63,074 nt of DNA from an uncultured virus (IMG/VR IMGVR_UViG_3300026493_000141) (lineage: Duplodnaviria; Heunggongvirae; Uroviricota; Caudoviricetes), in IMG/VR virus record IMGVR_UViG_3300026493_000141, positions 62,001 through 125,074 of that record; one strand, 5' to 3'. A program made the translations under genes and the position numbers. Positions within the stretch are counted from its first letter, which is position 1, and each line of letters begins with the position of its first letter. Below the pieces are notes generated by a model, which saw nothing but the letters and a program-made list of their open reading frames with translations, searched no databases and was not told the origin of the DNA. Positions 14,434 to 39,857 of the stretch are shown one piece after another.

Positions 14434-14754
14434 TTATTCCGCAGGAATGATAACACCTGGTTCCCGATCTTCATGTTTCTCAATCGGATCACGGTGATCT
14501 GTATCAGGGTCATACTTTCTTTTTGTTTCAAATGAGATACTATCAATTGCATCATACGTGATTGCATGATCAATAACATCTCCTGAACCTGGTTTAAATT
14601 CCTCAAAGATTAATAAGGATAATTTATGGTTCCATTCTTTTAATCTGTTACCTTTACGATGCGTCCACATACGACCATTGTTTAAATGTAATCGGTCAAT
14701 GTTAATAGGACCACCGAATTTCTCGAATGCGTATTCGATTTGTTCTGGACTCAT
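14434..14754 (-). CDS. Hypothetical protein
   Basis: GAGGAG RBS before ATG 14754 (MSPEQIEY). Confidence 0.65.
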   Translation of the reverse strand: MSPEQIEYAFEKFGGPINIDRLHLNNGRMWTHRKGNRLKEWNHKLSLLIFEEFKPGSGDVIDHAITYDAIDSISFETKRKYDPDTDHRDPIEKHEDREPGVIIPAE

Positions 14755-14950: not shown

Positions 14951-15912
14951 ATGTAGAAACCTCCCGGAACATACTTAAATAGGAACTCATAGATAGAGCT
15001 AAAGGACTCTGAGTTTTTCCCATTCTTGAATTTTACTAATACGTCATCTAGTTCTACTTCTAGTGCCGCACCAGTATGTATTAATTCCATGTTAACGAAG
15101 TTAAACTTACTACAATACTCAAAGATTTCTCTAAAGATATCTGTTACACTTGTAGCGATAACTTCTTTCTCATAGTGAACGATGTAATCAGGTTCTCCTT
15201 CTGAATGACTTTGGTCATATTCACGGATTACGTAATTCATCACTACATGAGACATGTTATCTAACTTCTTATAATATTTATAAGGGATTGCTTTAAACAT
15301 TCCGTTTCCTAAGTTAATAAATACTTGGGAACCTTTATAGCGTTTCTTCTTACTTGGAATGTGCTCACCCATATTCATAACAGCAAAGTCTTTCATTACA
15401 AAGTTGAAATCGTCTCTATAGAACTTCTCTACATCAGCTGTACGCATTGTTAAGAGTTCTCTCACTACATCGATTTCATTTGGATCGACAATTGATTTAC
15501 CTTTTAATGTGTATAGGTAATCATGTACAAATAGTAATGTCGATGCAATTAAGTTTACGATATCATATGTACCGCTACGTTTTAATCTATCAATACGAGT
15601 ATCCATAAAATATGTAACGAAGGTATTTAACGTACCTTCGGATACTACATTTAATACATCTTCAATATCAATCTTTTCATTATCATTAATTAACTGCTTT
15701 AAATGAGTTAATCCATTTAAGATATTAAATAAGCTATCTGTCATAGCTGGTACACGTGATACTCGTGCTGTACGAATATCATCTACAGGTTTAGAAGTTT
15801 CTGCATCAATAATGATTGATGGCTTCTTTTCTTCTAATCGTACTGCTTTTACTTTACGTACATTTACCTGTCTAGTGTCTGTGTGTGCTACTACCTTAAT
15901 TTCGTTTGTCAT
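14947..15912 (-). CDS. Hypothetical protein (321 aa)
   Basis: ORF with GGGAG RBS. Confidence 0.7.
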   Translation of the reverse strand: MTNEIKVVAHTDTRQVNVRKVKAVRLEEKKPSIIIDAETSKPVDDIRTARVSRVPAMTDSLFNILNGLTHLKQLINDNEKIDIEDVLNVVSEGTLNTFVTYFMDTRIDRLKRSGTYDIVNLIASTLLFVHDYLYTLKGKSIVDPNEIDVVRELLTMRTADVEKFYRDDFNFVMKDFAVMNMGEHIPSKKKRYKGSQVFINLGNGMFKAIPYKYYKKLDNMSHVVMNYVIREYDQSHSEGEPDYIVHYEKEVIATSVTDIFREIFEYCSKFNFVNMELIHTGAALEVELDDVLVKFKNGKNSESFSSIYEFLFKYVPGGFYI

Positions 15913-26850: not shown

Positions 26851-28293
26851 ATGTTTATTTCTGATGAGGATTTCAGAGAACTGAAATTGAGCGTCATGCA
26901 GGAGTTAGGAAGACGTAGTAGAACAAATACAGTCCCTAACTATAAACCTGAAGCTACATCAAGTGAACTTGTAGAAGATGTTCATTATGATGAAATGGCG
27001 GACGCGATTGACCAAGTCAAACACTTCGATAAACCATTAGCAAAAGATCAAGCAGAAATGGTTGAAGTGGATGAAATGGCAGCGACTACGTATAAATTGA
27101 AAAACTCGAAGCAAGACGGCGGTAACTCATGTAACGGTGCATGTACTGGTTTATGTAGTACATCATGCGTTGGTGGGTGCGTAGGTTCTTGTTCAGGTAC
27201 ATGTGGCGGTGGCTGTGCTACTGGTTGTACAAGCTCATGTACTGGTGGATGTTCAGGAAGTTGTTCTGGTGGGTGTTCTACTAGCTGTAGCTCATCTTGT
27301 ACAGGTAACTGTTCTGGTGGATGTTCAGGCGGATGTTCTGGTAGCTGTTCTGCAAACTGTGCGGCTGACTGTTCTTCTGGATGTTCTGGTAACTGTTCTA
27401 GTGGATGTTCTTCATGTTCTGGAACGTGCTCAGGTGGATGTTCAACTGGCTGTGCTGGTGGATGTCAATCAACATGTACAGGTGGATGTTCAGGAACATG
27501 CTCAGGTACATGTGGCGGAGGATGTGCAACAGGTTGCGTAAGTGGATGTTCTGCGGGATGTTCAACAAGCTGTATCGGTGGTTGCGGTGGTTCTTGTTCC
27601 TCAGGTTGTTCCGGTGGATGTACTGGTTGTGGTTCTTCATGTAATAACACATGTCAAGGTGACTGTGGTGGAACATGTCACGGTAACTGTGGTTCTGCTT
27701 GTGGTTCTGGCGTATGTACTGGAGCATGTCACTCAGCTTGTACAGGTGGCTGTGGAGGTTCTTGTTCTGGAGGATGTTCCGCTTATTGTACAAGTTCTTG
27801 TGGTAGTACATGTACAGGCGGATGTGGATCATCTTGTTCTGGTGGATGTACAGGAACGTGCTCTGGAGGTTGTGCGACAAACTGTACTGGCGGATGTACT
27901 GGTTCATGTACAGGTAACTGTGCAAGCACATGTTCTACAGGGTGTGCCGGTAACTGTGCTTCAGGTTGTTCAACAGCATGTAACAGTGGATGTACTGGCG
28001 GATGTAGTACAGGATGTACATCATCATGTACAGGTAGCTGCGTAAGCTCATGTACTGGTGGTTGTGTGGGTACATGTAGTACAGGCTGTAGCACGTCTTG
28101 TTCTTCAACTTGTGGTAGTGATTGTTCTGGTGGTTGTGGTAGCTCTTGTTCTGGCGGATGTACAGGTGGATGTTCTGGAGCATGTTCTTCAGGATGTACA
28201 AGTTGTACAGGTTCTTGCTCAGGTACAGCAATGAGCGTTAACTACTCTAGACCAGTATACAATGTAGGAAGTAGCGGAATCGCTAAATTCTAA
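26851..28293 (+). CDS. Cys-rich Cxxx-repeat protein, putative radical SAM modification target
   Basis: About 93-aa leader, about 90 Cxxx units (C-S/T-G/S-G/S/T) and a short tail; GAGGAGG RBS; upstream of a radical SAM gene. Confidence 0.85.
   Translation: MFISDEDFRELKLSVMQELGRRSRTNTVPNYKPEATSSELVEDVHYDEMADAIDQVKHFDKPLAKDQAEMVEVDEMAATTYKLKNSKQDGGNSCNGACTGLCSTSCVGGCVGSCSGTCGGGCATGCTSSCTGGCSGSCSGGCSTSCSSSCTGNCSGGCSGGCSGSCSANCAADCSSGCSGNCSSGCSSCSGTCSGGCSTGCAGGCQSTCTGGCSGTCSGTCGGGCATGCVSGCSAGCSTSCIGGCGGSCSSGCSGGCTGCGSSCNNTCQGDCGGTCHGNCGSACGSGVCTGACHSACTGGCGGSCSGGCSAYCTSSCGSTCTGGCGSSCSGGCTGTCSGGCATNCTGGCTGSCTGNCASTCSTGCAGNCASGCSTACNSGCTGGCSTGCTSSCTGSCVSSCTGGCVGTCSTGCSTSCSSTCGSDCSGGCGSSCSGGCTGGCSGACSSGCTSCTGSCSGTAMSVNYSRPVYNVGSSGIAKF
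27130..28218 (+). repeat. Degenerate 12-nt tandem coding repeat (TGT-N9)
   Basis: TGTTCTGGTGGA / TGTACAGGTGGA-type units, with occasional 9-nt or 15-nt units. Confidence 0.9.
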
Positions 28294-28939: not shown

Positions 28940-30277
28940 ATGGGATGCTCTGTAGAACAGACATACGTTAAAACCACATCTGAATTCCAAGATACGTTTG
29001 GAACGATGTATGATGTAGATACACCTGAAAACTTGGAAAAGTATTCGGAAAAAGATTTAGCTACAAAGAACCTTACTTTCGTTATGACGGAAGAGTGTAA
29101 CTTACGTTGCACATACTGTTACCAAGTAGGTAAAAATAGAAAGTTCATGTCAAAAGAAGTTGCTCGTAAAGCAGTAGACTTATTATTTGACACAGAACGT
29201 AATAAAAACTTCGTTAACGATAAGATTCACAAAGCTGTAATCTTAGACTTCATCGGTGGAGAACCATTCATGAACGTTGACGTAATGGACTTTATCGTGG
29301 ATTACTTCCGCTTTAAAGCTACAATGGAAAACTCACCTTGGGCATTAAACTATATGATCAGTGTATCAACTAACGGTACACTAAACCATACAAAACGTGT
29401 AAAACGTTTCATTGAAAAGAACCAAGGTCGTATCTCTGTATCTATCACAATTGATGGAAACAAAGATTTACATGACTCTTGTCGTGTATTCGCTAATGGT
29501 AAAGGTAGTTATGATATCGTAGAACGTAACGTGAAGAATGCAATTGCAGAACACGGTCTATCTTCTACTAAAGTTACCTTTGCTCCAGAAAACATTGATA
29601 AAATCACAACAGCAATTCCACATTTATTCGAAATGGGATTACGTGAAATCAATGCCAATGCAGTATTTGAAAACGTATGGAAGCCAAAAGATGCTTTCGT
29701 ATTCTATGATCAGTTAATTAAACTAGCTGACTGGTATCTAGAAAGTGGATACTACAAATCAGCCGTTATCAGTATCTTTGAAGAATCTATTGGGAAACCG
29801 ATGAAAGAAGAAGAAAATGATAACTGGTGTGGTGGAGATGGTAAGATGTTAACTATCGGTTGTGATGGTAAACTATATCCTTGCCTACGCTTCATGAGCT
29901 ATTCAATGGAAAACAAGGAACGTCGTGAAATCATTATCGGTAACGTTGATGACGGTATGATTGACATTAAAGACGATCCATTAGTAGAAGAACTATTCGG
30001 TATCACTCGTCGTTCTCAATCAACTGACAAGTGCTTTAACTGCCAAGTAACAAGTGGCTGTGGCTGGTGTACAGCTCATAACTACGATGTATTTGGTTCT
30101 TCTAATATTCGTGCAACATTTACTTGTATGATGCACAAAGTTCGTGTTCTTGCGAACTATTACTACTGGAATAAACTTTACAAGAAGTTAGGTAAAGACG
30201 ACTTCTTCGAATGTAACCTAACTGCGGATGAAATCGAATTCATCACACAAGGTAAAGGTATTCCAACTATCGACTAA
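28940..30277 (+). CDS. Radical SAM/SPASM peptide maturase, Cxxx-repeat target family
   Basis: CNLRCTYC, FIGGEP, STNGT, SITIDG; SPASM cysteines WCGG...YPC...CFNC...GCGWC...C. Confidence 0.92.
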   Translation: MGCSVEQTYVKTTSEFQDTFGTMYDVDTPENLEKYSEKDLATKNLTFVMTEECNLRCTYCYQVGKNRKFMSKEVARKAVDLLFDTERNKNFVNDKIHKAVILDFIGGEPFMNVDVMDFIVDYFRFKATMENSPWALNYMISVSTNGTLNHTKRVKRFIEKNQGRISVSITIDGNKDLHDSCRVFANGKGSYDIVERNVKNAIAEHGLSSTKVTFAPENIDKITTAIPHLFEMGLREINANAVFENVWKPKDAFVFYDQLIKLADWYLESGYYKSAVISIFEESIGKPMKEEENDNWCGGDGKMLTIGCDGKLYPCLRFMSYSMENKERREIIIGNVDDGMIDIKDDPLVEELFGITRRSQSTDKCFNCQVTSGCGWCTAHNYDVFGSSNIRATFTCMMHKVRVLANYYYWNKLYKKLGKDDFFECNLTADEIEFITQGKGIPTID

Positions 30278-31639: not shown

Positions 31640-31973
31640 CTTAGAGTCTGAAGACCCAAAGGTCACCGTGTACTATATCTCGGAAGCGCTTATATCTACA
31701 CTTATCGGAGTTTTCTTAGGTATAATGCTTACCACTTTGATAGACGACATCAAAACATGCATTGTTGCCACTGGATTGGGCGCATATTTTGGTAGATATA
31801 CGTTAAACGTCGTCGCAAAGCTACTATTATTCAATCTCAAGAACTTTAGCATTCCACTGGATGAAGAAGAATTAAAACAAGAAAAGAAGCAATACGATGA
31901 AGAGAATGAGAATAAGCCTAAGAAACGTCAAGATAGGGAAGATAGTAATAAAAGTAATGGAGATAGAGACTAG
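31548..31973 (+). CDS. Putative holin
   Basis: GTG start with GGAGGTG RBS, three hydrophobic segments and a highly charged C-terminal tail. Confidence 0.55.
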   Translation: MEKLFTIDILLMISVSLLTSSIVSLNRYATDLESEDPKVTVYYISEALISTLIGVFLGIMLTTLIDDIKTCIVATGLGAYFGRYTLNVVAKLLLFNLKNFSIPLDEEELKQEKKQYDEENENKPKKRQDREDSNKSNGDRD

Positions 31974-32041
31974 TTCTCTATCTCTGTCTTTTTCGCCGTT
32001 CTCAACAGGTAATTAACTATACCCTAAAGGAGGGACTTATA

Positions 32042-36270: not shown

Positions 36271-36296
36271 ATTTTTATTACCCTTAACATATTAGT

Positions 36297-36394
36297 AACT
36301 ATAAAAAATACACAAAGTTATTAACTCCGTATAGACTAAGCCGCCCTAACTGGCAAAAGGGTTGATGAGTAGGATAATCTCCTACTCATCTTTT
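36297..36394 (+). ncRNA. Putative small RNA 1
   Basis: AACA-N6-TA at 36286-36297; AGACTAAGC at 36333; terminator GATGAGTAGGA/TCCTACTCATC-TTTT at 36364-36394; no RBS-led ORF. Confidence 0.55.
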
Positions 36395-36413
36395 ACATTT
36401 GTAACATAATATT

Positions 36414-36598
36414 AGACCTGCAAAGCCGATAGGCAAGTATAGGTTTAGAGTAAAGCTAATGGCTTATTTTCCTTTGATGAAGACTACGTTTCTGTGATTT
36501 TTTAACTGGCATTTTTGTTAGTCCAACAAAACTATTTCCTTTAAAAAGCGTAGATTATGCATGAGATGACCCCGTTGGTCATCTCTCATTATTTTTTA
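36414..36598 (+). ncRNA. Putative small RNA 2
   Basis: AACA-N6-TA at 36403-36414; motifs at 36481 and 36552; terminator hairpin at 36561-36598. Confidence 0.55.
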
Positions 36599-36619
36599 AT
36601 ATTATAGTAACATACATAT

Positions 36620-36720
36620 AAGAAAGCCTATAGATTTTATCTCTTTACAGAAAGAAGAGACTATGCACATTCACCTTAACAGGAGTAGAACCGTAATTGG
36701 TTCTACTCTAATTATTTTTT
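36620..36720 (+). ncRNA. Putative small RNA 3
   Basis: AACA-N6-TA at 36609-36620; motif at 36658; hairpin GAGTAGAACC/GGTTCTACTC at 36683-36708 followed by a T-run. Confidence 0.55.
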
Positions 36721-36742
36721 ACACATTACATAACAGAATAAT

Positions 36743-37461
36743 AGACGTGGAATAAAAACTAGACTATGCTTAGAAACGCCAGTTTCTACTAAAAACTATA
36801 GCTTATCTTTTACCCAAAAGTAGAGCGCAAAACAATTCCAAATGTTATTCCACGCTCGTCGTATTAGACTACGCAGATTTATGAAAGTCTATATTTTATA
36901 ATATTATTCTGCCCAGAATAATATGTATCACAAGTCCATAAGTACACACCAGACTATGCACTGTCACCGTTTTACGGGAGACGACCAAATTATCGATTTT
37001 AACTGTCGTTGTACTTATAGGGCTAGACTATGCTAATCAAAATAAAAAAGATATGTTGTTATCTTTATTTTGATCACTGGTTCAGAGGGCTTACACTAAC
37101 TACTAATCGTATATTGTATTCTTCAACCCTCTGTAACCTTATTAACTATTAGAGTATATGAATACATTACAATCTTATATGTTTTAATTAACATATACTC
37201 TAATCATATATCTTATACATAGGGGATAAAAAATAACACTAATCTCTAGTCGTTATACCTATTTTATCATCCCTATGGTCAGTTCTCTGGTACCATTATA
37301 ACAAAAAAAATATAATCAAGTATATTCTAACTTATATTTTATTCTCAGTCATCGAGTTAAGACTACGCAATCAACTTACACAATAAGTTACTCGATGCTC
37401 ACCGATCCAGAGAACATTAGACTATGCAACCGACCATACCTTAATTGGTATGGTCATTTTT
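36743..37461 (+). ncRNA. Putative large structured RNA 4 (~720 nt)
   Basis: AACA-N6-TA at 36732-36743; six motifs; at least eight inverted-repeat stems; terminator GACCATACC/GGTATGGTC-ATTTTT at 37432-37461. Confidence 0.6.
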
Positions 37462-37487
37462 ACCGCCATTTTTACTAACATATAATT

Positions 37488-37611
37488 AACCCATTAGTGG
37501 TCATGATTGTTTCTCTAGTTTAATGTAGCATATACAATTTTATTCCTTTAAACTTATTGGTTTAGATTATGCTAGAAGAGTAAGGGCTTAGTCCCTTACT
37601 CTACTTATTTT
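37488..37611 (+). ncRNA. Putative small RNA 5
   Basis: AACA-N6-TA at 37477-37488; AGATTATGC at 37564; hairpin AGAGTAAGGG/CCCTTACTCT at 37577-37602. Confidence 0.55.
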
Positions 37612-37615
37612 GACA

Positions 37616-37660
37616 AAAAAAAAATAAAGGTAGATACCGTAATGGTATCTACCTCTTTTT
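37616..37660 (-). terminator. Intrinsic terminator of ppk
   Basis: AGGTAGATACC/GGTATCTACCT hairpin with an A-run on the left. Confidence 0.75.
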
Positions 37661-39857
37661 ATTCCGCATGTGACGCAAATAAGCGATTCACATTCTTTAC
37701 TTTATTATACTTGATTGCAGACTTACAGAAGTATGTCTGAGTTGCTTCTGATTCATATCCAGGCTTCTTATATTTCTTACCTTTCAGCTCATATGCATGA
37801 GTATCTGTAATATGACGTGTAAGGATATCTGTAATTCTATCTTTAATTGTAGGGTCAAGTACAGGCATTGCAATCTCAAAGCGTTTATCTAAATTGCGCT
37901 CCATTAAATCAGCTGATGCAATATATATTTCAGGTTTCCCATCATTATGAAAATGATATACTCGACTATGCTCTAAGAATCTGCCTACGTTACTAACTAC
38001 GGTAATATTCTCACTTAATCCTTCTATACCTGTAACTAAACAACATGCTCCGCGAACAATCATCGTACAATGAACACCGTTAACAGAAGCTTCATATAGT
38101 TTATCAATGATTGTTTTATCTGTTAAGCTATTTACTTTAAATGTAAGCATTGCAGATTTACCTTTACGAGCATTCTCAATTTCTCTATCAATAAGTTCCA
38201 TGAACTTACTTCTTAGATTATAAGGTGCCGCTACGATACGTCTTAGTTTCGGTTCACTGAATCCAGTTAATGTATTAAATAGATTAAATACATCTTTACA
38301 AATAGCTGGATGTGCTGTGAATACTGACATATCTGTATAGATGTTAGATGTCACATCATTATAGTTCCCTGTACCAATGTGAACGTAGTTCTTTAAGTTT
38401 CCTTTACGAGTACGCTTTGTAATCAATGTCATCTTACAGTGTGTCTTTAAGTTATCTACCCCATAGATAACATGACCGCCAGCCCGTTCTAACTTAGAAG
38501 CCCATTCTAGATTACGCTTCTCATCAAAACGTGCTTTAATCTCTAATAGGACTACGACTTGCTTTCCATTCTCTGCTGCTCGAATTAGACTATCCATGAT
38601 TGGCGAATTGCTACTTAGACGATATAACGTTTGTCTGATAGCTAGTACATCTGGATTGTCCGCAGCCTCTTTCACGAAGTCTACTACCGCGTCAAAGGAC
38701 TCATATGGGTGATGTAGGAATACGTCATTCTTATCAATCACATCTAGGATGTTATGAGTTCCCACTAAATCCTTTCCTACTTGCGGAGTAAACTTCTTGT
38801 ATAATAACTCAGACTTCTCTTCATCGGATAATGTTATATTTAACCCGAATCCCATAGATAAGTCTACAATCTCTTTCATTTCGATTACATGTTTCTTATC
38901 TACTTTTAATGCATTCTGTAAGATACGAGTCATTTCTTTACTTGCTTTCGTAATCTCTAATGCAACAACGTCACCTTTCTCACGTTTCTTCAATGATTCT
39001 TTCATACGGTCTGCTAAGAACGTATGAGTATTATTTTCAACTTCATCATCGAAGTTACGTAGTGCACGATAGAAACAATGTTCTGTAATCTTGCGACTAA
39101 TAAAGATTTTATCTAAATTCATTAAGATTAAGTCTTCTAGTAAAATGAAGTGGCGTTCCCCTTTAGGAACATCTTTAGATTCAATCTCAATCACTCTATC
39201 AATATTCGGTACTTGAATAGTACCAAACATATCAACATTTGGATTACGAGGGTCTTCTAATAATACTCCGATATTCATTACCTTACTTTGAATTAATGGG
39301 AATGGGCGACTGTTATCAAACACAATCGGTACAATCAATCCTTGCACTTTATCCTCGAAGTAATTATCTAACCAACGCTTTCTTTTATTTGATGGTGCCA
39401 TTATTGCTTTAGAAGGACGATATAGTTTATATCCTTTCTCTTCTAATTCCTTACGAATATTACATATTGTCTTTTGTTGACGATGGATGAAACTATTTAA
39501 TTTCTTAAATAAAATCTTATACTCTTGAACCGGTGTCATACCATTAATATTACGAGAAGTTTCTTTCTCTAGAACCTTCTTAATCAATGCACCCATTCGT
39601 ACCATAATAAACTCATCTAGATTACTAGCTGTAATAGATAAGAACTTCATTCTCTCTAATAATGGAGTATCTTTATCCTTTGCTAAATCTAAGATACGTT
39701 CATTAAACGCCATCCAACTTAAATCTCTTGCTTCATATTTATCTTTAGCTGGTACTGCTTTTTCTTTCTTTTCCGGTTGGCTTATTACCGCTGGTAATAG
39801 ATTTGAACTTCCTACCATCTCTGCATTTGTTGTTACTTTAGTTTCTAATTCGCCCAT
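37659..39857 (-). CDS. ppk1: Polyphosphate kinase 1
   Basis: RDLSWMAFNERIL, SNLDEFIMVR, LHHPYESF, ARFDE, KTHCK, GTGNYN, GRFLEHSR, SADLMERNLDKRFE. Confidence 0.96.
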   Translation of the reverse strand: MGELETKVTTNAEMVGSSNLLPAVISQPEKKEKAVPAKDKYEARDLSWMAFNERILDLAKDKDTPLLERMKFLSITASNLDEFIMVRMGALIKKVLEKETSRNINGMTPVQEYKILFKKLNSFIHRQQKTICNIRKELEEKGYKLYRPSKAIMAPSNKRKRWLDNYFEDKVQGLIVPIVFDNSRPFPLIQSKVMNIGVLLEDPRNPNVDMFGTIQVPNIDRVIEIESKDVPKGERHFILLEDLILMNLDKIFISRKITEHCFYRALRNFDDEVENNTHTFLADRMKESLKKREKGDVVALEITKASKEMTRILQNALKVDKKHVIEMKEIVDLSMGFGLNITLSDEEKSELLYKKFTPQVGKDLVGTHNILDVIDKNDVFLHHPYESFDAVVDFVKEAADNPDVLAIRQTLYRLSSNSPIMDSLIRAAENGKQVVVLLEIKARFDEKRNLEWASKLERAGGHVIYGVDNLKTHCKMTLITKRTRKGNLKNYVHIGTGNYNDVTSNIYTDMSVFTAHPAICKDVFNLFNTLTGFSEPKLRRIVAAPYNLRSKFMELIDREIENARKGKSAMLTFKVNSLTDKTIIDKLYEASVNGVHCTMIVRGACCLVTGIEGLSENITVVSNVGRFLEHSRVYHFHNDGKPEIYIASADLMERNLDKRFEIAMPVLDPTIKDRITDILTRHITDTHAYELKGKKYKKPGYESEATQTYFCKSAIKYNKVKNVNRLFASHAE

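What the first reader, a model, noticed from the sequence alone, without database searches (positions are those of the whole stretch)
36280..37620. Cluster of five late-promoter-driven non-coding RNA units sharing an AGA(C/T)UA(U/C)GC motif
Seen: a 1.35-kb stretch with no RBS-led ORF in an otherwise densely coding genome. It parses into five consecutive units. Each begins with AACA-N6-TA (36286, 36403, 36609, 36732, 37477), the motif that precedes the structural genes here, and each ends in a hairpin plus T-run (36364, 36561, 36683, 37432, 37577). Every unit carries the 9-mer (11 copies, one strand), and in units 2, 4 and 5 a copy directly abuts the terminator. Established: AACA-N6-TA/G is the late promoter of the AR9 non-virion RNAP. 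Inference: a phage-encoded family of sRNAs presenting a common protein-binding or processing signal, for example a decoy for a host defence RNase or toxin (compare pseudo-ToxI repeats), a Csr/Rsm-like sponge, or guide RNAs. I do not recognise it as a described family.
Basis: partly seen in the sequence, partly recalled or inferred. Interest (0 to 1): 0.9.

Follow-up and report, generated by a model that had tools for sequence, protein, structure and literature searches.

The report
Two arrays of tagged phage sRNAs
An uncultured soil jumbo phage carries about nineteen small non-coding RNA genes in two arrays, most ending in the same nine-letter tag beside their terminator hairpin, and a related phage has a different tag at the same places, which points to an unknown partner that reads the tag.

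Summary
Window 36271-37658 is the largest ORF-free gap of the 125-kb record. It holds five units, each with an AACA-N6-TA promoter and a hairpin/T-run terminator, and 9 exact AGAYTAYGC copies on one strand (1.75 expected in the whole window). The phage is an uncultured relative of AR9/PBS1 with split multisubunit RNA polymerases.

New here:
- The complete 233-kb map has a second array outside the window. It holds 13 tidier units plus a 329-nt GC-rich structured RNA, with 12 more exact tags.
- In 13 of the 19 units the tag lies 1-4 nt before the terminator hairpin.
- A diverged relative (64% identity in the neighbouring protein) keeps the syntenic array, with compensatory stem changes. At four firmly anchored homologous positions it carries TTACTACAK instead, so the tag changed in concert.

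Neither array has an SD-led ORF, an Rfam match, tandem repeats or cas/toxN neighbours. The genome has no tRNA genes.

Best reading: a new family of nvRNAP-transcribed small RNAs whose tag plus terminator hairpin is a common handle read by one co-evolving trans-acting partner. The partner was not identified and expression was not shown.

The parts
36286..36400 (+). Unit A1: promoter AACA-N6-TA at 36286-36297 (predicted start 36297), body of about 100 nt, terminator hairpin 36364-36390 plus T-run. It has only a one-mismatch tag (AGACTAAGC, 36333-36341).
   Evidence: It is 75% identical to L007:14247-14362 (z 14.3 against shuffles). The internal hairpin GCCCU/AGGGU becomes CGUCC/GGACG around a conserved CUGGCAA loop; the two were folded independently.
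36403..36598 (+). Unit A2: promoter 36403-36414, body of about 180 nt, tag 36552-36560, terminator 36563-36585 plus T-run. A one-mismatch tag lies at 36481-36489.
   Evidence: It is the ortholog of L007:14364-14507 (65% identity, z 9.6), with an identical terminator core. L007 has TTACTACAG at the tag position.
36609..36718 (+). Unit A3: promoter 36609-36620, tag 36658-36666, terminator 36682-36709 (15 nt after the tag) plus T-run.
   Evidence: In L007 this terminator and the next promoter are absent, so units 3 and 4 are fused there.
36732..37462 (+). Unit A4: promoter 36732-36743, body of about 720 nt, six tags (starting at 36761, 36866, 36951, 37025, 37360, 37419), terminator 37432-37455 plus T-run. 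Most tags are followed by a local hairpin.
   Evidence: The tags at 36761 and 37419 are anchored to the L007 tags at 14611 and 15145 by conserved flanks.
37477..37612 (+). Unit A5: promoter 37477-37488, tag 37564-37572, terminator 37577-37602 plus T-run.
   Evidence: It is the ortholog of L007:15199-15325, where the tag is TTACTACAT and the terminator stem has changed in a compensatory way.
37626..37656 (.). Bidirectional terminator that closes the array on the + strand and the convergent polyphosphate kinase gene on the - strand.
   Evidence: It is conserved in L007 at 15338-15365.

Best explanation
The region is one of two arrays of small non-coding RNA genes in an uncultured AR9-like jumbo phage. 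The arrays hold 5 and 14 units, about 19 genes in all.

How each unit works (inferred from sequence): the phage's non-virion multisubunit RNA polymerase starts at an AACA-N6-TA/G promoter and stops at an intrinsic terminator. The next promoter lies 13-24 nt beyond the previous terminator stem in the window's array.

What the tag does (inferred): in most units the RNA ends with a 9-nt tag (AGAYUAYGC), 1-4 nt of spacer, the terminator hairpin and a U-tail. I propose that this 3' module is a common handle that one trans-acting partner binds. The partner is most likely a fast-evolving RNA-binding protein of the phage, or of a host defence system.

What the bodies do (inferred): the variable 60-700-nt 5' bodies are individually conserved, so each probably carries its own function, as target, decoy or scaffold.

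Shown here: the anatomy, the two arrays, the lack of coding capacity, conservation above synonymous-site level, compensatory stem changes, and the concerted tag change between two phages.

Inferred only: transcription, binding, and the nature of the partner.
For: 1. The anatomy is far beyond chance.
- 9 tags in the window against 1.75 expected.
- 31 exact copies in the 233,172-nt map, 21 of them in the two arrays.
- Terminator-like sites: 7 against 1.1 expected in the window region, and 12 against 1.1 around the second array, all 12 on the tag strand.
- 19 promoters of AR9 late type (consensus from passages of PMC5312081).

2. The tag's place is fixed relative to the transcript. It lies 1-4 nt before the terminator hairpin in 13 of 19 units: 11 exact and 2 one-mismatch copies. 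The two arrays are inverted in the genome, yet in both the tag is on the promoter-to-terminator strand.

3. The arrays are non-coding. There are no SD-led ORFs, and A1's small ORFs are not shared with L007.

4. There is purifying selection. Fourfold-degenerate sites of the flanking genes are 23-55% identical between the window and L007, whereas A1 is 75% identical (z 14.3) and A2 65% (z 9.6). Stems change in a compensatory way: the A1 hairpin and terminators T4 and T5. Paralogous terminators also covary: GAGTA[G/T/C]AACC...GGTT[C/A/G]TACTC.

5. The tag changed in concert. L007 has no AGAYTAYGC in its 23 kb. It has 7 TTACTACAK against 0.93 expected, 6 of them in the syntenic array. Four of those six are anchored by conserved flanks to the window tags at 36552, 36761, 37419 and 37564.

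6. No complementary sequence is enriched in the phage. This favours a protein partner, or a host RNA, over a phage RNA partner.
Against: - No partner was found. Pfam, PHROGs and PADLOC scans of the window, the rest of the genome and the array neighbours gave no recognisable RNA-binding protein. Seven ORFs that straddle locus boundaries were not scanned.
- Five of 19 units (A1, B0, B9, B10, B12) have no tag next to the terminator, and A3's tag lies 15 nt away.
- The tag is not predicted to be notably single-stranded. Its mean unpaired probability is 0.51 for 21 tags, against 0.45 for the units overall, and only 11 of 21 exceed 0.5.
- C/U variation occurs at every C position of the tag. That would also fit pairing to G residues in an RNA partner.
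- Transcription is not shown. The metatranscriptome contigs could be carried-over DNA.
- The concerted change rests on one diverged relative, and on array A only.
Confidence: 0.45

Rival explanations
1. Sibling base-pairing sRNAs. The tag is a shared seed that pairs with one common target sequence in a host or phage RNA (GCRUARUCU in this phage, MUGUAGUAA in the relative). Many gene copies raise the dose.
For: - A 9-nt specificity that changes at 5-6 positions is most easily explained by a complementary RNA.
- The variable tag positions are C/U at positions 4 and 7, and C to U at position 9 in two one-mismatch copies. All would still pair with G.
- One perfect complement, GCGTAGTCT, lies in an intergenic leader downstream of an AACA-N6-TA site at G001:1265-1315.
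Against: - The complement is not enriched in the phage: there is a single perfect site where my own estimate is roughly 0.75 by chance.
- B0 carries no complement; its best duplex of -5.5 kcal/mol is weaker than the shuffle mean of -8.3.
- No A-to-G variants are seen, although pairing logic would also allow them.
- The host is unknown, so host targets could not be searched.
Confidence: 0.2
2. Processing or decoy site. The tag next to a hairpin is the recognition site of a sequence-specific endoribonuclease, either a phage or host maturation enzyme or a host toxin or defence RNase. The enzyme would cut long precursors such as A4 into hairpin RNAs, or be titrated by them.
For: - The 720-nt unit A4 holds six tags, most followed by a hairpin, as would be expected of a precursor.
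- Lineage-specific tags would fit different host nucleases.
- Three of the 6 array tags in L007 contain UACAU, which I recall as the Bacillus/Staphylococcus MazF site. This is recalled, not tested.
Against: - The phage's mRNAs do not avoid the tag core. GAYTAYG occurs 104 times in sense strands against 98.9 expected from codon shuffles, and GACTAT is enriched (z 3.2).
- No nuclease gene flanks either array, apart from an RNase H two genes downstream of array B.
- There are no tandem identical repeats as in ToxI.
Confidence: 0.15
3. DNA-level repeats. The 9-mers are double-stranded binding sites (iterons) of a replication, packaging or partition protein, and the hairpins and promoters are incidental.
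For: - The sites are direct repeats clustered in the two largest non-coding regions.
- Co-evolution of iterons with their initiator protein is well known and would also give a concerted change.
- Array A has an AT-rich stretch at about 37130-37340.
Against: - The tag is always on the transcribed strand and 1-4 nt from an RNA terminator hairpin in 13 of 19 units.
- The arrays are inverted relative to each other but keep the tag-to-transcript relation.
- Each unit is bounded by a promoter and a terminator that are conserved in the relative.
- GC skew follows the direction of transcription and shows no origin signal.
Confidence: 0.07
4. Non-functional remains. The arrays are decayed genes between mobile terminator-promoter cassettes (like the T4 PeSL elements), and the tag is an inherited part of the cassette.
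For: - In array A the next promoter follows the previous terminator stem by 13-24 nt, cassette-like.
- Terminator stems are paralogous.
- Unit number differs between the phages: window units 3 and 4 are one unit in L007.
Against: - Units A1 and A2 are conserved well above synonymous sites.
- Stems show compensatory changes.
- Simple inheritance cannot turn all anchored tags into the same new 9-mer.
- The cassettes flank no ORFs.
Confidence: 0.05

Closest known systems
Sibling sRNA families of bacteria (for example Listeria LhrC1-5, Vibrio Qrr1-5; recalled, not tested here)
   Same: Several paralogous small RNA genes, some in tandem. Each has its own promoter and intrinsic terminator, and all share a short conserved motif.
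   Different: This family has about 19 genes, lies in a virulent jumbo phage and uses a phage RNA polymerase promoter. The motif sits against the terminator hairpin. The bodies are unrelated in sequence. No chaperone or target is known.
3' protein-binding modules of sRNAs and snRNAs (the Hfq module of enterobacterial sRNAs; the Sm site next to the 3' stem-loop of snRNAs; recalled)
   Same: A short motif directly 5' of a terminal hairpin (here followed by a U-tail), shared by RNAs with different bodies.
   Different: The tag is not A/U-rich or U-rich, it is 9 nt long and sequence-specific, and it differs between two related phages. This argues against a conserved Hfq/Sm-type reader.
ToxI and phage pseudo-ToxI (type III antitoxin RNA)
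   Same: A phage-borne repetitive non-coding RNA that a sequence-specific RNase could read.
   Different: There are no tandem identical repeats of about 36 nt. Only 9-12 nt are shared. No ToxN/AbiQ-type gene lies nearby. Each unit has its own promoter and terminator.
CRISPR arrays, mini-arrays and solitary-repeat RNA anti-CRISPRs of phages
   Same: A constant short element joined to variable segments, repeated many times on one strand of a phage.
   Different: The constant part is 9 nt, not 24-40 nt. The hairpins differ between units. No cas gene was found in the genome scans. The units are separately transcribed.
T4-type promoter/stem-loop (PeSL) cassettes
   Same: A terminator stem-loop directly followed by a phage promoter, repeated along a plastic region.
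   Different: PeSLs flank small ORFs. Here the segments between cassettes have no SD-led ORFs, and they carry a tag that changed in concert.
Known non-coding RNAs of AR9-group phages
   Same: Same phage group and same promoter type. phiR1-37 has one reported intergenic sRNA (passages of PMC4848604).
   Different: No array is reported there. The AR9 transcription paper reports no non-coding units in the passages searched. The largest gaps of PBS1 look like group I introns by eye (not scanned against Rfam), not sRNA arrays.

Membership tests
AR9-type nvRNAP transcription unit | AACA-N6-TA/G upstream, with the last base as the start site | tested here: met
   19 sites head the units. The motif is enriched in intergenic DNA upstream of genes (36 of 91 sites lie in 7.7% of the record). 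Consensus taken from passages of PMC5312081.
AR9-type nvRNAP transcription unit | The phage encodes split beta/beta' multisubunit RNA polymerase subunits | tested here: met
   Matches to phrog_2987, phrog_2962 and phrog_3233, and to Pfam Rpb1_2 and Rpb2_6. Best relatives are phiR1-37, BpSp, AR9 and PBS1 at 32-36% identity.
AR9-type nvRNAP transcription unit | Transcripts start at these sites in infected cells | not testable with these tools
   Only assembled contigs of RNA libraries could be laid, and they cannot show starts, ends or strand.
Intrinsic terminator | G+C-rich hairpin followed by a T-run on the transcribed strand | tested here: met
   7 found against 1.1 expected; 12 against 1.1; 8 against 1.3 in L007.
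ToxI-like type III antitoxin / pseudo-ToxI | Tandem, nearly identical repeats of about 34-40 nt | tested here: not met
   TRF finds only two trivial rows of 12-13 nt. Shared direct repeats are 10-21 nt.
ToxI-like type III antitoxin / pseudo-ToxI | Cognate ToxN/AbiQ-type endoribonuclease | tested here: not met
   No such PADLOC match in the 28 proteins scanned (27 flanking the two arrays, plus P0006). A host-encoded toxin could not be tested.
CsrB/Rsm-type protein sponge | Many GGA motifs presented in hairpin loops | tested here: not met
   The shared motif has no GGA. No Rfam match at E up to 10.
CRISPR array / solitary-repeat anti-CRISPR RNA | Conserved direct repeat of 24-40 nt; cas genes or a host repeat to mimic | tested here: not met
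   Only 9-12 nt are constant. No cas family was found in the Pfam scans of 235 ORFs. Host repeats could not be tested.
Sibling sRNA family | Several independently transcribed paralogous sRNA genes with a shared motif | tested here: met
   19 predicted units, 21 exact tags, paralogous terminators. This is by prediction only.
Sibling sRNA family | The shared motif pairs with target RNAs | tested here: inconclusive
   No enrichment of the complement in the phage. The bodies show no complementarity above shuffles. The host is unknown.
Iteron-type origin or packaging site | Repeated double-stranded binding sites with an adjacent unwinding element and initiator gene, independent of transcription | tested here: inconclusive
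   The tag position is tied to the transcript. There are two inverted arrays. No skew signal. Binding itself cannot be tested here.
Any Rfam 15 family | Score at or above the family's gathering threshold | tested here: not met
   No hit in either array. The only hit in 78 kb is a group I intron elsewhere.

The most novel reading that the evidence does not exclude
The tag plus hairpin is the handle of a so-far unknown phage ribonucleoprotein system. About nineteen different late RNAs would be loaded onto one phage-encoded effector, which would use their conserved variable bodies as guides, decoys or scaffolds. This would be a programmable RNA-protein system of jumbo phages, unrelated to CRISPR or Hfq networks, whose handle and reader co-evolve.
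Probability: 0.15. Interest if true: 0.95.

Novelty: new variant of a known kind. Interest (0 to 1): 0.78.

Why it matters
Phage-encoded small RNAs are known mostly as single genes of temperate phages. My four full-text searches and the passages read from the AR9 and phiR1-37 transcriptome papers turned up no report of an array of this kind.

This virulent jumbo phage spends about 4 kb on some 19 separately transcribed RNAs and has no tRNA gene. The lineage-specific tag next to the terminator gives a direct experimental handle. The two natural tag versions are a ready-made specificity swap.

If it is a host nuclease or RNA, it would be a new kind of RNA-based counter-defence or host control.

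Tried and rejected
- Rfam at E up to 10 on array A, at E up to 5 on array B, and at gathering thresholds on 78 kb: nothing in the arrays.
- Coding reading of the tag. The two Y positions are the wobble positions of GAY-TAY (Asp-Tyr). I rejected this because TAA or TAG precedes GAC in several units, there are no SD-led ORFs, and L007's tag has no such pattern.
- Tag as a promoter. It contains TATG, the phiKZ late motif. I rejected this because L007's tag lacks TATG, and only 3 exact copies lie in intergenic DNA outside the arrays.
- Tag as a general termination signal. Rejected because terminators outside the family lack it.
- Unit bodies against the rest of the phage genome, sense and antisense: nothing above 10 shuffle sets except another terminator of the same type.
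- A complement of the tag in B0 or elsewhere in the genome: none enriched.
- A 5'-end-to-tag panhandle: mean z of -0.59 over 13 units.
- Avoidance of the tag core in mRNAs: none.
- Predicted accessibility of the tag: not distinctive.
- GC skew: it follows transcription only.
- PBS1: the only DNA match is a terminator between genes 258 and 259. Its largest gaps look like group I introns by eye; I did not scan them against Rfam.
- IMG/VR scan for two tags 95-125 nt apart: 25 loci. Three belong to this phage, and the other 22 have only 2-3 copies. I read only L013, which is a coding Asp-Tyr-Ala repeat.
- IMG/VR scan for the T2 hairpin: only this phage.
- Protein-based searches for relatives: IMG/VR gave only this phage plus one weak match (35% identity over 47 residues, L004, not followed up). 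GTDB genomes gave none.
- Metatranscriptomes. 20 of the 24 listed runs are RNA libraries that hold 81% or more of the sampled words. In the four runs laid, the phage appears in contigs up to 116 kb (run X2), so carried-over DNA cannot be excluded. One 751-nt contig of run X16 spans 36714-37464, which is almost exactly unit A4. I treat that as a weak hint only.
- P0006, the 320-aa ORF whose ribosome-binding site directly follows a stray tag, as a possible self-regulated reader: no family match. Left open.
Full report
**What the window is.** The window is part of a 125,074-nt virus record. Identical sequence lies in a 223,016-nt IMG/VR contig, G001. A third contig, G002, overlaps both ends of G001 at 100% identity. 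This closes a circular map of 233,172 nt, on which window position x equals 64442 minus x.

The phage encodes split beta/beta' RNA polymerase subunits, gyrase, a DnaB-like helicase, a tubulin and a polyphosphate kinase. Its polymerase subunit is 32-36% identical to those of phiR1-37, BpSp, AR9 and PBS1. Its 1019-aa structural protein and the DNA of array A match nothing in the GenBank phage collection; array B matches only a 39-nt terminator-like stretch in PBS1. It is therefore an uncultured, distant member of the AR9 group. The runs that hold it are labelled soil metagenome.

**Check of the observation.** All parts of the description hold.
- The gap 36271-37658 is the largest ORF-free stretch of the record (1388 nt; the next is 426 nt).
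- AGAYTAYGC occurs 12 times in the window against 1.75 expected, and 9 copies lie at 36552-37572 on the + strand.
- AACA-N6-TA heads each of the five units. In the whole record it is concentrated in intergenic DNA, 28-55 nt upstream of start codons (36 of 91 sites lie in 7.7% of the sequence).
- The AR9 transcription paper gives AACA-(6N)-TA/G as the late promoter, with the last base as the start site (passages read).
- In this array the next promoter starts 13-24 nt after the previous terminator stem.
- Predicted RNA lengths are about 100, 180, 100, 720 and 125 nt.

**The family is four times larger.** A search of G001 found 28 exact tags. Nine are the array in the window, and nine more form a second cluster at the far end of the contig, on the other strand. 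With the bridging contig, the second array (B) runs over about 2.8 kb and holds 12 exact tags.

Array B is tidier than array A. It has thirteen units, B1-B13, of 94-259 nt. Each has a TAACA-N6-TA promoter and a variable body. In most, (T/A)AGACTATGC is followed after 1-4 nt by a terminator hairpin and a T-run. In the part of the array held in G001 there are 12 terminator-like sites against 1.1 expected, all on that strand.

The array is headed by B0. This is a 329-nt, GC- and purine-rich RNA with its own promoter, no tag, several GNRA-type loops and a folding z-score of -4.57.

Over both arrays, 13 of 19 units have a tag 1-4 nt before the terminator (11 exact, 2 with one mismatch). A3 has a 15-nt spacer. 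A1, B0, B9, B10 and B12 have none adjacent.

Of the 10 exact copies outside the arrays, 7 lie inside ORFs and 3 are intergenic. This is about what chance gives.

Neither array has a Shine-Dalgarno-led ORF. The whole genome has no tRNA gene.

**Comparative evidence.** One diverged relative could be fetched: L007, from a 230-kb metagenome contig. Its neighbouring proteins are 64-80% identical to the window's. Gene order is the same, and a 1.1-kb non-coding region lies at the same place. That region has four promoter-terminator units.

Fourfold-degenerate sites of the flanking genes are only 23-55% identical. Unit A1 is 75% identical (z 14.3) and A2 is 65% (z 9.6). The RNAs are therefore under selection.

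Stems change in a compensatory way.
- The A1 hairpin GCCCU/AGGGU becomes CGUCC/GGACG around a conserved CUGGCAA loop. The two sequences were folded independently.
- Terminators T4 and T5 have entirely different but complementary arms.
- Further double changes are counted.

The main finding concerns the tag. L007 has no AGAYTAYGC at all. Instead it has TTACTACAK 7 times against 0.93 expected, with 0 of 100 shuffles reaching 7. Six copies lie in the array on the transcribed strand; the seventh lies inside a conserved coding stretch.

Four of the six are tied to window tags by conserved flanks:
- before the identical T2 hairpin (36552 with 14457);
- before the AGAAACGYCAGTTTCT hairpin (36761 with 14611);
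- before T4 and the next promoter (37419 with 15145);
- before T5 and the poly-A/bidirectional terminator (37564 with 15279).

The two tags share only an AYUAY core. Independent drift cannot turn several homologous sites into the same new 9-mer. The tag must therefore be read by something that changed. This rests on a single relative and on array A only. The rest of that contig could not be reached.

**What reads the tag.** I tested the readings that sequence alone can test.
- A phage RNA partner is unlikely. The complement is not enriched, and B0 does not carry it. One perfect complement does lie in an intergenic leader.
- The unit bodies have no complementarity to the phage genome above shuffled controls.
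- The tag does not pair consistently with the 5' end of its own RNA. It is not predicted to be unusually open.
- The phage's mRNAs do not avoid the tag core. This argues against a short-motif nuclease that the phage must escape.
- No RNA-binding protein, cas gene or toxN-type gene was recognised. The scans covered 235 ORFs against Pfam, 70 window ORFs and 15 array-neighbour or candidate ORFs against PHROGs, and 28 against PADLOC. Most proteins of this phage match no family, so this is weak evidence.
- A DNA-level role fits poorly with the fixed relation of the tag to promoters and RNA hairpins in two inverted arrays. GC skew is uninformative.

I therefore favour a protein reader of the 3' module formed by the tag, the hairpin and the U-tail. 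A shared base-pairing seed and an RNase site are the main rivals.

**Expression.** Twenty of the 24 listed runs are RNA libraries that hold 81% or more of the sampled words of the stretch. In the four runs laid, however, the phage appears in contigs up to 116 kb, so DNA in the libraries cannot be excluded. One 751-nt contig of run X16 spans 36714-37464, almost exactly unit A4. That is a weak hint and no more.

**Comparison with what is known.** The units look like sibling sRNA genes, and the 3' module resembles the protein-binding ends of Hfq-type sRNAs or snRNAs. Both comparisons are recalled, not tested.
- The family is not ToxI-like: there are no tandem repeats.
- It is not a CRISPR-type array: only 9-12 nt are constant.
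- It is not a Csr-type sponge: the tag has no GGA.
- It matches no Rfam family.
- PBS1 has no such array.
- The AR9 paper (passages) and the phiR1-37 paper (passages) report none. Four full-text searches listed nothing similar. I did not read supplementary tables of those papers; AR9's tables of start sites could list orphan starts.

**Verdict.** The feature is real and is under selection. It is a previously undescribed two-array family of small RNA genes with a lineage-specific tag. Its function and its partner are unknown, and transcription has not been shown.

Noticed in passing
L009:7011-7339 (G001:221010-221338), + strand, outside the window: B0, a 329-nt GC- and purine-rich RNA-like element at the head of the second array. 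It has its own AACA-N6-TG promoter, several GAAA-type loops and SD-like GGAGG/GAGG runs. MFE is -113 kcal/mol and z is -4.57. It matches no Rfam family.
   Followed up: partly
L009:1017-1209 and L009:1465-2217: A group I intron (Rfam RF00028, 98 bits), with a NUMOD4/HNH homing-endonuclease ORF just downstream.
   Followed up: no
window 37659-39857, - strand: A full-length polyphosphate kinase 1 gene (four PPK domains) in a jumbo phage, convergent with the RNA array. It is 80% identical to the L007 ortholog.
   Followed up: partly
whole 233-kb map (loci L036-L048): ARAGORN finds no tRNA or tmRNA gene in the whole genome, which I recall as unusual for a phage of this size.
   Followed up: yes
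L040:9941-11053: A tubulin/FtsZ-family protein (PhuZ-like). AR9/PBS1-type phages are, as I recall, not described as forming a phage nucleus.
   Followed up: no
window 28940-30274: A radical SAM/SPASM protein encoded among + strand, late-promoter-driven genes next to virion proteins.
   Followed up: no
G001:162061-162778 and G001:143167-143991: Two further ORF-poor stretches of 718 and 825 nt. The first looks like structured RNA. The second looks like a broken or interrupted gene. Neither carries the tag family.
   Followed up: partly
G001:98481-98489, before L041:18486-19445: A stray exact tag (TTAGACTATGC) lies directly before the ribosome-binding site of a 320-aa ORF with no known family (P0006). 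It could be chance, or a site of translational control by the tag reader.
   Followed up: partly
window 28065-28158: Contigs of three RNA-library runs skip 92 nt here, inside the 480-aa ORF 26851-28293. This looks like a length variant in a repetitive Cys/Gly-coding stretch.
   Followed up: no
window 31640-31975 and L007:9607-9932: This stretch is well conserved between the two phages on the + strand, although my ORF picking assigned it a 59-aa minus-strand ORF. It is probably a + strand membrane-protein gene or an extension of the preceding gene.
   Followed up: no
L009:5226-6923: The 566-aa protein just upstream of array B carries a dATP/dGTP diphosphohydrolase N-terminal domain. This may hint at non-canonical DNA nucleotide metabolism.
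   Followed up: no
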